64,000 nucleotides of DNA from Candidatus Bathyarchaeota archaeon (lineage in GTDB: Archaea; Thermoproteota; Bathyarchaeia; 40CM-2-53-6; RBG-13-38-9), in contig CAWECG010000003.1 in NCBI GenBank assembly GCA_963807605.1, positions 672,001-736,000 of the forward strand, given 5' to 3'. Shown here in pieces: positions 27,791 through 30,888 of this stretch. Made by a program: the position numbers and the translations under genes. Under the pieces are notes generated by a model. The model was not told where the DNA came from. It saw only the letters and a list, made by a program, of their open reading frames with translations, and did no database searches. How positions within the stretch are numbered: position 1 is the stretch's first letter; each line of letters opens with the position of its first letter.

Positions 27791-28966
27791 CTATGAGGTC
27801 TTGAACGTAATAGTTCTATACGGGCCTTTCTTATCTTTGTAAGCTAGGGCTATTACGTCACTATCTTGTAGTCTCTCCGCTCGGCCAGTTGGAAGTTGGA
27901 GCCAAGACCCTCTTCGACCTACTGCAGTGTTGTTCAAGCTATGCAGATCCTCAACCCAGTAGTCTCCCTGGGTGTCAACAAACACCTTGGCGTGGTGCCT
28001 GCTGATGCATGCTCCTGGTGGGGGGTCGTCTATGCTGACATCGAGAGGTTGATGGAAGCCTTTACTCGTGCATTCCTTTGTGCATGTGTGCGTCCGTCCT
28101 AGTGTGAGGCTACCTTTGATTTTGTACTTCATGCTTCCGACGATTATGTGGGGGACGCCGACTGATACCGACCTGCCCTTGGTTAGCATGTTTATCATGT
28201 CACCAGCCGTCTGGTAACGCGAAGCAACGTCCGGCTGCATAGCAGTTGCGACAATATCAGAAATCTCACGGCTCACGGATGGGTTAAGGTCACAAGGAAG
28301 TTTCAAAAGCGCACCGGTACTTTTCATATGGAATCGTGGCTCCTCGCCTGTCAATAGAAAGAATAACAATGCTCCCGTTGCGTAGACGTCGCAAGCAGGT
28401 GTTAAAACCCCCGTGGTAAACTGTTCTGGGGCGCCCCAACCTGGCGTAACGAGGCCACTGTCGGACATCATGTAGGATTTCTTGCAGCCGCCTAAATCAA
28501 TTAGAACAAGATCTCTCCTTGGCTCCACAATGATGTTTGCAGGTTTTATGTCGCGGTGGAGAATGTTTAATGGAGGATTATGCAAGTATCGTAAAACGTC
28601 CAAGAGAATGATGCTTAAGTGCTTTGCCACTTTCTCCGGAGCCGGGTTGCCCGCGAACCGTTTCATTGTGTCTCCGGGAACGTATTCTTCTACAAGATAA
28701 AATGTTGAGCCCGAATCTTTTTCGTCGACATGTCTTACTATGTTGCGGTGCCTTATCGTACGAAGCAGTTGCGCCTCAAACTTAAGCTTCTGTAGCCGAA
28801 TGTCATCGCATCCATCGCCTGCCACTTTAGTCTCCTTGACAACAACATCTTCACCGGTGTCCGAAGTAGCTAACCATATGAATCCCATGCCTCCGTCGGC
28901 TAGCTTCTTCTTGACTTTATACGTTCCGGAATTGCCAGCGACTTGGGAGCCTGCACTCAGAACCAT
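27791..28966 (-). CDS. Hanks-type protein kinase with C-terminal FHA domain (paralog 2)
   Basis: GGMG, VVVK, HRDIKPAN, DLG, APEQ, DVYATG; FHA LGR...SRHHA...SLNNT; colinear with 25238-26425. Confidence 0.9.
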   Translation of the reverse strand: MVLSAGSQVAGNSGTYKVKKKLADGGMGFIWLATSDTGEDVVVKETKVAGDGCDDIRLQKLKFEAQLLRTIRHRNIVRHVDEKDSGSTFYLVEEYVPGDTMKRFAGNPAPEKVAKHLSIILLDVLRYLHNPPLNILHRDIKPANIIVEPRRDLVLIDLGGCKKSYMMSDSGLVTPGWGAPEQFTTGVLTPACDVYATGALLFFLLTGEEPRFHMKSTGALLKLPCDLNPSVSREISDIVATAMQPDVASRYQTAGDMINMLTKGRSVSVGVPHIIVGSMKYKIKGSLTLGRTHTCTKECTSKGFHQPLDVSIDDPPPGACISRHHAKVFVDTQGDYWVEDLHSLNNTAVGRRGSWLQLPTGRAERLQDSDVIALAYKDKKGPYRTITFKTS

Positions 28967-29114
28967 GGCAGAACTATATGAATACCTCAAATTCCAGAAT
29001 ATACTATTTTCGATTCGACATGTCAGTTTTGCTAAATCATTGACGCGATATTCTGGAGCGCGTGTTACCTTTGATTTGCCGTCTCCGAAATCTCAATTTA
29101 AGGTGGCGCACGCG

Positions 29115-29714
29115 TTAAGAGATTCGTGTGCTTTTCTGGAAGGTTATTAATGAATCGTCTTTGTAAGAAATCGTTCCAGCATGAACAAACCTTGCCTGCT
29201 CTACCTCTTGGACGACTTCCGTCTTGTTGATGATTGGGGGACCGACCCTTCCAGAGAATACGCTCCTACCGGTCTTCTCAACAATGATCAGTCTACCCGG
29301 TGGCTTCATGATCCTAAAGAACTCAGTAAGAACTCTTATCCTGTCTTCCACTTCATGAAAAACATGTACTAGAAGGATAATGTTAACGCTCTCATCCTCA
29401 AGCTCAATCTCTGTTCCGTCAGTCCTCAGGAGCTCTACGGTCACACCACTTCTCTTAGCGTAAGGGGTGACCTTATCAAGCATCTTTGAAGAGATGTCTA
29501 TCCCGATTGTTCTATCTGCAACTTTAGCTATGGGGATCGTGAAGAAACCAGTGCCGCAGCCGAAATCTATGACAACGTCAGTCGGCTTTATCTTCAGCTT
29601 TTGGATAAGCGGCTCAGGAGGATAAAGAAGCCTTCTAATCGGGTTGCTTAGTATAAAGGCCATTCTCTCTGGGAAGCGCCTGTGTATATTAAAGGCGTGA
29701 GCCGATTTGACCAC
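29115..29714 (-). CDS. Class I SAM-dependent methyltransferase (UbiE-like)
   Basis: DFGCGTG, GIDIS, VFHE, RIMKPPG. The ORF track extension beyond 29714 lies inside the IS. Confidence 0.85.
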   Translation of the reverse strand: MVKSAHAFNIHRRFPERMAFILSNPIRRLLYPPEPLIQKLKIKPTDVVIDFGCGTGFFTIPIAKVADRTIGIDISSKMLDKVTPYAKRSGVTVELLRTDGTEIELEDESVNIILLVHVFHEVEDRIRVLTEFFRIMKPPGRLIIVEKTGRSVFSGRVGPPIINKTEVVQEVEQARFVHAGTISYKDDSLITFQKSTRIS

Positions 29715-29725
29715 TACTAGCGCGC

Positions 29726-30830
29726 GGGCTTGTCCCGATATTCTTTGAGTTGACACGGAAAGATCCATATGGTTTGAGCCCCACACCCTCCTACTTGGAG
29801 GCGATTCCAGATAGAAGGGTACGAGACTCTGGAGTCACTGCTGAGTAATCTGGATTTATCGTTTGTTGAACGCCTCATTGTTAGCTGCTATCATCAAGAC
29901 GGTCCAGGTAAACCTCCACGAAACCCCTTAGGACTCTTCAAGGCACACCTCGCCAGACGCTACCTGAGAATGAGCAGTCTGCGTGATTCTGAACGCCACT
30001 TATGTCATGATGAGAGGCTACGTGACATATGCGGCATAAGATATGAGGAGCCAGCGTACGGTAGGACGGTACTCTCAAGATTCAACCAGCGGCTAGGCGC
30101 AAGAAGACTAAGACGCATAGTAAACAAACAGGTCAAGAAGTTGCTGAAGAAACACATAGCAAAACCCAGGATAGTCGCTATGGACGCTACCTTCATCAAA
30201 GCCTACAGCAGACGCAACATAAACAATAGAACAGGCTTCAGCGACCCTGAAGCCCGTGTAGGAAGAGCCTACCGCACATACAGCCTAGGTTACAAACTAC
30301 ACCTCACAGTCGATGCAGACACAGGGACACCCCTAGCCTTCCTCATCTCACCAGCAAACACTAACGAGAAGAAACTCAGCATACCACTCCTCAAAATGAC
30401 AGTTAAAACCACAGCAATCAGAATCCGACAGCTAACCGCTGACAGTCAATACTCCAGCAACAGACTCAGAGAGACCGCTAAAAGACACAAAATCAAGACC
30501 GCGATACCCTACCCAGCCAACCAGAACCCTGAAAGACAAAACATCCTCAGAGTAACCAGCGACTTCAAAACACACGGCCCAGAAAACCTCAAACGCATCT
30601 ACAAGAAACGCTCAACCATAGAGCTCGTCTTCGCATCACTCAAAGAACACCTCACCCTCAACAATCACAAAACAAGAGGCTTAGAAAACATCACCATCCA
30701 CACCAGCTACTGCATACTATGCCTACTCTACACCATAGAAGCCTCACACAACACCAAACAACCCACCAAAACCAGAAGCATAACACACTGGACAAACCTA
30801 ACATGAAAACGCTAATATCGGGACAACCCA
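29726..30830 (+). mobile_element. IS5/IS1182-like insertion sequence, about 1.1 kb
   Basis: Terminal inverted repeats GGCTTGTCCCGATATT (29727-29742) and AATATCGGGACAACCC (30814-30829). Flanks are TAGCGCGC and GCGCGCTA, giving a direct repeat of GCGC or AGCGCGC. Confidence 0.88.
29811..30806 (+). CDS. DDE transposase with DUF772-like N-terminus
   Basis: MDATFI, GYKLH, ADSQY, YKKRSTIELVF. The frame is open from 29778 and includes GPGKPPRNPLGLFKA; likely ATA start after GGAGG. Confidence 0.85.
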   Translation: MEGYETLESLLSNLDLSFVERLIVSCYHQDGPGKPPRNPLGLFKAHLARRYLRMSSLRDSERHLCHDERLRDICGIRYEEPAYGRTVLSRFNQRLGARRLRRIVNKQVKKLLKKHIAKPRIVAMDATFIKAYSRRNINNRTGFSDPEARVGRAYRTYSLGYKLHLTVDADTGTPLAFLISPANTNEKKLSIPLLKMTVKTTAIRIRQLTADSQYSSNRLRETAKRHKIKTAIPYPANQNPERQNILRVTSDFKTHGPENLKRIYKKRSTIELVFASLKEHLTLNNHKTRGLENITIHTSYCILCLLYTIEASHNTKQPTKTRSITHWTNLT

Positions 30831-30888
30831 GCGCGCTATAGCTTATTCTGTCGATGAGAGGTTAGGGGTGTTGCTTGAAGTTCATTTC

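What the first reader, a model, noticed from the sequence alone, without database searches (positions are those of the whole stretch)
29718..30838. IS element inserted into the boundary palindrome
Seen: the flanks are TAGCGCGC and GCGCGCTA. Removing the element and one GCGC duplication regenerates TAGCGCGCGCTA; a 7-bp AGCGCGC duplication is the alternative reading. The insertion lies about 11 nt upstream of the likely methyltransferase start and may separate it from its promoter. Inference: this IS5/IS1182-like element either targets the motif as a safe harbour, as some IS do with REP or attC sites, or its transposase generates and uses such sites.
Basis: partly seen in the sequence, partly recalled or inferred. 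Interest (0 to 1): 0.7.

Follow-up and report, generated by a model that had tools for sequence, protein, structure and literature searches.

The report
Jumping gene targeting a GC palindrome
This is a young 1.1-kb insertion sequence of an uncultured Bathyarchaeia archaeon that, like every relative I could collect, lands in the centre of the short GC palindrome scattered between this genome's genes and duplicates four bases of it. It is an ordinary kind of element with an unusually strict and harmless landing site.

Summary
A 1105-bp insertion sequence (window 29726-30830) carries 17-bp terminal inverted repeats and a 342-codon DDE transposase frame. It sits between TAGCGCGC (29718-25) and GCGCGCTA (30831-38). 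The genome holds 14 intact copies of this clade in several lineages, some with 0-1 differences between copies. All 14 lie in alternating-GC sites.

A 4-bp duplication is perfect in 13 of 14 copies, a 6-bp one in 10 of 14, and odd lengths in none, so the 7-bp reading fails. Identical copies differ right at the element edge, and one copy has ACGC on both sides. The GC flanks are therefore target DNA, not part of the element.

Relatives in other Bathyarchaeia genomes and metagenomes, with 45-50% identical transposases and different repeats, show the same flanks. The solo palindrome A(GC)4T occurs 106 times and avoids gene interiors, and no copy breaks a long reading frame.

Palindromes are abundant in relatives where the element was not found. 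The element also occurs where palindromes are rare. It uses the sites and does not appear to make them.

No true empty site was found. The effect on the methyltransferase gene 11 nt away is untested. This scan reached the same conclusion earlier on other copies in this genome.

The parts
29718..29725 (.). Left half of the target palindrome (TAGCGCGC). Its last four bases, 29722-29725, are one copy of the GCGC target-site duplication.
29726..30830 (+). The insertion sequence proper, 1105 bp, subfamily A. There are 3 copies in the genome, at least 99.6% identical.
29726..29742 (+). Left terminal inverted repeat, 17 bp. It matches the right one at 15 of 17 positions.
29778..30806 (+). Transposase reading frame, 342 codons open, stop codon at 30804-30806. 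It holds DUF772 plus the DDE_Tnp_1 domain, with D136, D222, E282 and the Y-R-E-K spacing. There is no ATG, GTG or TTG before 29970. ATA 29811 aligns with the first Met of distant homologues.
30814..30830 (-). Right terminal inverted repeat, 17 bp.
30831..30838 (.). Right half of the target palindrome (GCGCGCTA). Its first four bases, 30831-30834, are the second copy of the GCGC duplication.
29115..29714 (-). Neighbouring class I SAM-dependent methyltransferase (Methyltransf_11 type, not a DNA methylase). The start is GTG 29714, 11 nt from the element. The longer frame to 29786 is an artefact that runs into the IS.

Best explanation
This is an active DDE-transposase insertion sequence of an undescribed Bathyarchaeia clade in the IS5/IS1182 superfamily.

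Its transposase binds the 17-bp terminal repeats and joins the element ends to a target made of alternating G and C, ideally TA(GC)4TA. The two strand transfers are staggered by 4 bp at the centre of that palindrome. Gap repair duplicates the central GCGC, so each end of the element is followed by (GC)3 and the apparent inverted repeat is lengthened to 25 bp.

Shown here:
- copy number, and recent activity inferred from near-identical copies;
- flanks that are target-derived;
- a 4-bp duplication;
- strict target choice across the clade;
- palindromes that lie outside gene interiors;
- no copy that breaks a long frame.

Inferred:
- the staggered-cut chemistry, from what is established for DDE transposases;
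- whether recognition is by sequence or by an unusual DNA structure of alternating GC;
- the idea that insertions are tolerated because the sites are at gene borders.

In this window the insertion puts 1.1 kb between the methyltransferase start codon and whatever lay upstream of it. The outward-facing end of the element carries an A/T-rich box about 26 nt before that start and might replace a lost promoter. That is conjecture.
For: Copies and activity:
- There are seven copies of this type (3 in subfamily A, 4 in B) and seven of a third type, all with open transposase frames.
- Within-group differences are 0-4 bases.
- All are flanked by GC runs.

Duplication length:
- Length 4 is perfect in 13 of 14 copies, length 6 in 10 of 14, length 2 in 12 of 14 and odd lengths in 0 of 14.

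Flanks are target DNA:
- Five copies with 0-1 internal differences differ at the first base after the right end and at the fourth base before the left end.
- One of them has ACGC on both sides.

Reconstructed targets:
- 5 of 14 are the full 12-mer palindrome and 7 of 14 are A(GC)4T. The rest are close GC variants.

Same flanks elsewhere:
- About 20 copies in other Bathyarchaeia MAGs, with 45-50% identical transposases and different repeats.
- Copies in relatives G001, G002, G008.
- 199-bp MITEs and a 1104-bp copy from metagenomes. Three of these MITEs abut the end of another clade member, two with GCGC and one with (GC)4 between.

Transposase:
- DDE_Tnp_1 scores 93 bits and DUF772 32 bits, and the DDE and YREK residues are invariant.

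Location of sites:
- Only 6.6% of solo palindromes have 40 or more open codons on both sides, against 64% of random positions.
- The longest frame across any reconstructed empty site reaches at most 48 codons on its shorter side, and the long frames end within 7-26 codons of the site.

Precedents:
- IS5 makes a 4-bp palindromic duplication, YTAR (PMC5009759).
- IS1182-family members target palindromes or stem-loops (PMC5678879).
- An IS1182-related MITE has 4-bp repeats (PMC11578231).
- Several IS target REP palindromes (PMC1525189).
Against: - No true empty allele was found, so the pre-insertion site is reconstructed, not observed.
- Intergenic DNA of the only same-genus genome is not alignable.
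- One of five identical copies has a mismatched duplication, GCGC against ACGC.
- A few old copies elsewhere have one-base mismatches.
- One copy in G018 has (GC)4 on both sides, which needs either a (GC)6 target or an 8-bp duplication.
- A 47-nt MITE remnant keeps the half palindrome at an end that has lost its terminal repeat, which simple insertion does not explain.
- The transposase has no canonical start codon in any copy.
Confidence: 0.85

Rival explanations
1. The GC run is part of the element. The true terminal repeats would be 23-25 bp and include GCGCGC or TAGCGCGC. The element would insert anywhere, with no duplication or a TA duplication.
For: The 25-nt arms pair at 92%. GCGCGC is present at both ends in nearly all copies, even in subfamilies whose inner repeats differ. 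The element occurs in G012 and G018, which have only 7 and 5 (GC)4 sites. In G018 two of the five sites are the flanks of its single copy.
Against: Five copies with 0-1 internal differences diverge immediately outside the inner repeat. One has AACGC on the left and ACGC on the right. Asymmetric flanks, GCGCGC on one side and GCGCGT, GCGCGA or GCGCGG on the other, fit a 4-bp duplication of a real target. No direct repeat lies outside the GC run. TA is absent on one side in 3 of 7 copies here and in other genera. MITEs abut another element with only GCGC between them.
Confidence: 0.04
2. The element makes the palindromes. Solo A(GC)4T sites would be excision footprints or other products of this transposase, which then reuses them.
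For: The palindrome equals half-site plus half-site minus one duplication. The clade is intact and multi-copy in the two palindrome-richest genomes, G000 and G001.
Against: With a 4-bp duplication, precise excision only restores a site that was already there and cannot create one from a shorter run. No member of the clade was found by six-frame profile search in G003, G004, G007, G009, G010, G013 and G015, which hold 16-63 copies of the 10-mer. The clade is present in G008, G012 and G018, which hold 4, 2 and 1 copies. There are 106 solo sites against 14 elements. Longer runs expected from imprecise excision are rare: A(GC)5T occurs 5 times and A(GC)6T twice. Caveat: multi-copy elements are often missing from short-read MAGs.
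Confidence: 0.05
3. The element was not integrated by its own transposase at a chosen site. It was captured at a DNA break by a host end-joining process that writes GC patches at junctions. This is the reading that earlier notes of this scan give for the solo palindromes.
For: Earlier notes place the palindromes at joints of unrelated DNA (unchecked by me apart from what follows). Homology between G000 and G001 does break at palindrome edges near this element. The truncated MITE remnant still carries the half palindrome at its broken end.
Against: Every one of the 7 A and B copies has exactly (GC)3 on each side, with A or T only on the outer side. This is two halves of one site, not two independent patches. 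The two flanks are direct repeats of 4 bp, even when the repeat is ACGC. The same flanks are seen in genomes that are not enriched in the palindrome.
Confidence: 0.05

Closest known systems
IS5 family, IS5 group (E. coli IS5)
   Same: It has a single DDE_Tnp_1 transposase with an N-terminal DUF772 domain and the Y-R-E-K signature. The element is about 1.1-1.2 kb with short terminal inverted repeats. It makes a 4-bp duplication of a palindromic tetranucleotide (IS5 duplicates YTAR, PMC5009759). The full-length colinear match is to NCBIfam IS5 model NF033581.
   Different: The score is below the curated cut-off, 94 against 140 bits. The duplicated tetranucleotide is GCGC, not YTAR. Target recognition extends to 8-12 bp, so almost all insertions fall in one dispersed host palindrome. 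The host is archaeal (Bathyarchaeia).
IS1182 family, including IS1272 of staphylococci
   Same: The best NCBIfam hit is NF033551, E 2e-38. Some members target palindromes or stem-loops (PMC5678879). An IS1182-related MITE has 4-bp direct repeats (PMC11578231). In the IS1272 model, one outcome is duplication of the loop of the target hairpin. Here that would be the central GCGC.
   Different: The score is 132 bits against a cut-off of 270, in three separate stretches. The transposase is about 320-342 aa against a 488-position model. IS1272 replaces the target repeat without a duplication and its targets share no sequence. Here the target is kept, 4 bp are duplicated, and the sequence is strictly alternating GC.
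REP-targeting insertion sequences of bacteria (ISPpu9, ISPpu10, ISPa11, ISPsy8, ISRm19 and others)
   Same: They insert specifically into a short palindrome that the host genome carries in many intergenic copies, so insertions rarely hit genes (PMC1525189, PMC12288879; here).
   Different: The ISPpu9 example is IS110 family (PMC12288879), with a different transposase chemistry. REPs are 20-40 bp structured repeats, whereas the site here is an 8-12 bp GC palindrome of unknown origin. The host here is an archaeon.

Membership tests
IS5 family | DDE_Tnp_1-type transposase with catalytic D, D, E and Y-(2)-R-(3)-E-(6)-K spacing | tested here: met
   PF01609 scores 93 bits against a cut-off of 23. 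D136, D222, E282, Y275, R278 and K289 are invariant in alignment A1.
IS5 family | Score above the curated cut-off of an NCBIfam IS5 equivalog model | tested here: not met
   NF033581 scores 94.1 against 140, NF033579 63 against 140, and NF033580 61 against 110.
IS5 family, IS5 group | 4-bp target-site duplication | tested here: met
   Length 4 is perfect in 13 of 14 genome copies and is the best of lengths 2-8. Metagenome copies also support it.
IS5 family, IS5 group | Target tetranucleotide YTAR | tested here: not met
   The duplication is GCGC (once ACGC) inside a (GC)4 context. The YTAR motif is taken from PMC5009759.
IS1182 family | Score above the curated cut-off of NCBIfam NF033551 | tested here: not met
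   The score is 132.5 bits against 270, in three stretches, on a 342-aa frame against a 488-position model.
IS1182 family | Insertion into palindromic or stem-loop targets (a property of some members only) | tested here: met
   All copies lie in GC palindromes. The property is described in PMC5678879.
Palindrome-targeting (REP-type) IS, a functional class | All or nearly all copies inserted at the same position of a dispersed host palindrome that also exists in many unoccupied copies | tested here: met
   All 14 copies are in GC-palindrome sites and 7 are in A(GC)4T, while 106 A(GC)4T sites are unoccupied.
Palindrome-targeting (REP-type) IS, a functional class | An empty site with an intact palindrome observed at an orthologous or allelic position | tested here: inconclusive
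   No alignable empty site exists in the same-genus genome or in paralogues.

The most novel reading that the evidence does not exclude
The clade recognises the unusual structure of alternating GC (Z-DNA-prone, cruciform-capable) rather than its sequence. Elements pile up at the same sites. Recombination between palindrome-embedded copies, followed by precise excision, would then help to place intact palindromes at joints between unrelated gene blocks. On this reading the element contributes to the block shuffling seen between this genome and its relatives, rather than merely parking in the sites.
Probability: 0.1. Interest if true: 0.7.

Novelty: new variant of a known kind. Interest (0 to 1): 0.35.

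Why it matters
This gives a clean, well-replicated example, and to my knowledge the first in archaea, of an insertion sequence clade locked onto a host-specific dispersed palindrome. The target rule is defined: a 4-bp staggered joining at the centre of (GC)4.

It also constrains the unexplained GC palindromes of these Bathyarchaeia. They pre-exist the element, they are accessible double-stranded sites at gene borders, and this transposase does not make them.

A transposase with an 8-12 bp target preference could be of practical interest. On its own, however, the element is an ordinary mobile element.

Tried and rejected
Empty sites:
- I searched the same-genus genome G001 and four other relatives with the flanks of three copies.
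- I read the matching regions.
- I did the reverse for G001's own insertions.
- Genes are 70-80% identical, intergenic DNA is not alignable and synteny is mosaic, so no clean empty site was obtained.

Paralogous empty sites within the genome:
- The only hit is a 60-nt duplicate of one right flank, preceded by a (GC)3 palindrome. Its left side is unrelated, so it decides nothing.

Closed or exhausted tools:
- The one metagenome scan went on collecting more ends, not on an empty-site pattern. No transposase more than 90% identical to this one exists in the protein collection outside this genome, so a same-species empty allele was unlikely to be found.

Readings rejected:
- The 7-bp duplication.
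- A TA duplication with GCGCGC as element ends.
- Excision footprints of TA+GCGC+GCGC+TA type. Only 25 of 106 cores have TA on both sides, and the palindromes are distributed independently of the element.

My first guess that the methyltransferase starts at ATG 29663 behind a TATA-like box was wrong. That box lies inside the conserved coding region.

Full report
**What is there**

TAGCGCGC comes first. With the flanks included, the inverted repeat is 25 nt at 92%.

The element proper is 29726-30830, 1105 bp, with 17-bp terminal repeats matching at 15 of 17 positions. It carries one long frame, 29778-30806. Pfam reads it as DDE_Tnp_1 (93 bits) preceded by DUF772. NCBIfam puts IS1182 (132 bits, cut-off 270) and IS5 (94 bits, cut-off 140) on top, both below threshold. 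In an alignment with homologues down to 48% identity, the catalytic D136, D222 and E282 and the Y-R-E-K spacing are invariant.

**Copies**

The window lies in a 2.65-Mb, 5-contig assembly. The record titles of its relatives place it in Bathyarchaeia.

The genome has three copies of this subfamily, at least 99.6% identical, and four of a sister subfamily that is 92% identical to the first and at least 99.7% identical within itself. It also has seven copies of a third type with different terminal repeats. Five of those differ from each other at 0-1 positions. All 14 keep an open transposase frame. I take the near-identity as a sign of recent activity.

**Flanks**

Every copy is bounded by alternating GC. 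I tested duplication lengths 2-8 on the 14 copies:

| Length | Copies with a perfect duplication |
|---|---|
| 4 bp | 13 of 14 |
| 6 bp | 10 of 14 |
| 2 bp | 12 of 14 |
| odd lengths (3, 5, 7) | 0 of 14 |
| 8 bp | 0 of 14 |

The five near-identical third-type copies differ at the very first base outside the right end and at the fourth base outside the left end. One copy has ACGC on both sides. The GC run is therefore target DNA and not part of the element, and the stagger is 4 bp.

Reconstructed targets are the full 12-mer palindrome in 5 copies and A(GC)4T in 7 copies. The rest are close variants such as T(CG)5A or A(CG)5T.

**Beyond this genome**

A scan of species-representative genomes gave 31 loci, nearly all Bathyarchaeia. 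About 20 complete copies have 45-50% identical transposases and different inner repeats, and they again carry GCGCGC on both sides. The outer flanks vary, and no direct repeat lies outside the GC run. Asymmetric cases fit 4 bp and not 6 bp.

Copies in G001, G002 and G008 agree. A metagenome scan for one end returned many chance hits, but also 199-bp MITEs and a 1104-bp copy, all of the form GCGC, element, GCGC. In three contigs a MITE abuts the end of another clade member, two with GCGC and one with (GC)4 between them. This shows repeated use of the same site.

**The palindrome itself**

A(GC)4T occurs 106 times, and the 12-mer occurs 25 times against 0.12 expected. There is no wider conserved context. 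Only n=4 is enriched: the counts for n=3, 4 and 5 are 44, 106 and 5. This matches a 4-bp duplication at the centre of (GC)4.

The sites avoid gene interiors. Only 6.6% have 40 or more open codons on both sides, against 64% of random positions and 70% of other G+C-only octamers. The longest frame across any reconstructed empty site reaches at most 48 codons on its shorter side, and the long frames end within 7-26 codons of the site. 'Safe harbour' is thus a fair description of the consequence. It has not been shown to be a selected trait.

**Who makes the palindromes**

Among 41 relatives, the 10-mer is abundant (16-119 copies) in most genera of this family and rare elsewhere. A six-frame profile search found the clade only in G000, G001, G002, G008, G012, G018 and, as a fragment, G031.

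Seven palindrome-rich genomes show no member of the clade. G012 and G018 carry it with only 7 and 5 (GC)4 sites. In G012 the copies are mostly fragments.

Arithmetic adds to this: precise excision can only restore a site. The element therefore uses the sites and does not make them. MAG incompleteness weakens the absences, so I write 'not found in those searched'.

**Rival readings**

Earlier notes of this scan read the solo palindromes as scars of an end-joining process. I did not test that claim. I did see homology between G000 and G001 break at palindrome edges beside this element.

If the scar reading is applied to this element, with the IS captured at a break and patched on both sides, it does not fit the data. 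The flanks are two exact halves of one site and are 4-bp direct repeats.

**The neighbouring gene**

The frame on the minus strand is a class I SAM-dependent methyltransferase of the small-molecule type. Orthologues in G001 and G027 share the segment HRRF(P/S)E upstream of this gene's first ATG and have Leu at that ATG. The start is therefore GTG 29714.

Whatever promoter lay upstream is now 1.1 kb away. The outward-facing terminal repeat has an A/T-rich box centred about 26 nt before the GTG and could serve a leaderless transcript. This is conjecture.

**Comparison with known elements**

The element works like IS5 in making a 4-bp palindromic duplication (YTAR in IS5, PMC5009759). It works like the palindrome-seeking members of IS1182 (PMC5678879; 4-bp repeats in PMC11578231). 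Its genomic behaviour is that of the REP-targeting IS of bacteria (PMC1525189, PMC12288879). It passes neither curated family threshold, and its target is new.

Other copies of the same clade in this genome were already followed up in this scan with the same conclusion. My tests were run independently and agree.

**Limits**

- One fresh copy has a one-base mismatch in its duplication.
- One G018 copy has (GC)4 on both sides.
- A 47-nt MITE remnant keeps a half palindrome at an end without its repeat.
- The transposase start codon is not canonical.

Noticed in passing
window 29769-29845 (the same in all 7 A and B copies and in the G001 copy): The transposase frame has no ATG, GTG or TTG before 29970, although conserved residues begin about 29817. 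ATA 29811 aligns with the first Met of distant homologues. A short TTG-started frame from 29774, shifted by +1, encodes a peptide like the in-frame N-terminus of homologue P0004. The start is either non-canonical or reached by a +1 frameshift. Either would keep transposase levels low.
   Followed up: partly
G000:C3:384654-384715 (locus L026): A 47-nt remnant of the right end of the MITE form is still flanked by TAGCGCGC and GCGCGCT, although its left terminal repeat is gone. A deletion that ends exactly at the half palindrome is not explained by simple insertion.
   Followed up: partly
L012 about 1836-1847 (G001:C302), and L011: Synteny between this genome and the same-genus genome is a mosaic of 0.3-1.4 kb blocks that map to different contigs. 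At least one block border in G001 is a GC palindrome variant.
   Followed up: partly
L153, L111, L171 (metagenome contigs): 199-bp MITEs of this clade sit directly against the ends of elements of the third subfamily, with only GCGC or (GC)4 between them. These are pile-ups of different clade members at one site.
   Followed up: partly
G000:C3:255955-256014 and the right flank of the copy at C3:256831-257935: A 60-nt stretch next to one copy is duplicated about 800 nt away at 92% identity. There it is preceded by a (GC)3 palindrome with TA on both sides.
   Followed up: partly
L069 (G018:C168): The single copy in this distant relative has (GC)4 on both sides. These are two of only five such octamers in that genome. 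This implies either a (GC)6 target or an 8-bp duplication in that lineage.
   Followed up: no
G000:C1:381542-382667: One of five identical third-type copies has a mismatched duplication, GCGC on the left and ACGC on the right. This could be a point change or an exchange between copies.
   Followed up: no
L011:1-470 and about 20 places in G000, mostly contig C4: A repeat of about 470 bp, 82-92% identical, is present in some 20 copies in this genome and at a contig end of G001. It is unrelated to the IS.
   Followed up: no
G000 genome-wide: The commonest 12-mers are CA/TG microsatellite words (about 100 copies) and a set of overlapping words with 25-27 copies each, which look like one longer repeat, possibly a CRISPR array.
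   Followed up: no
window 27791-28990 (-): This gene encodes a Ser/Thr protein kinase domain fused to a C-terminal FHA domain, two genes from the IS.
   Followed up: no
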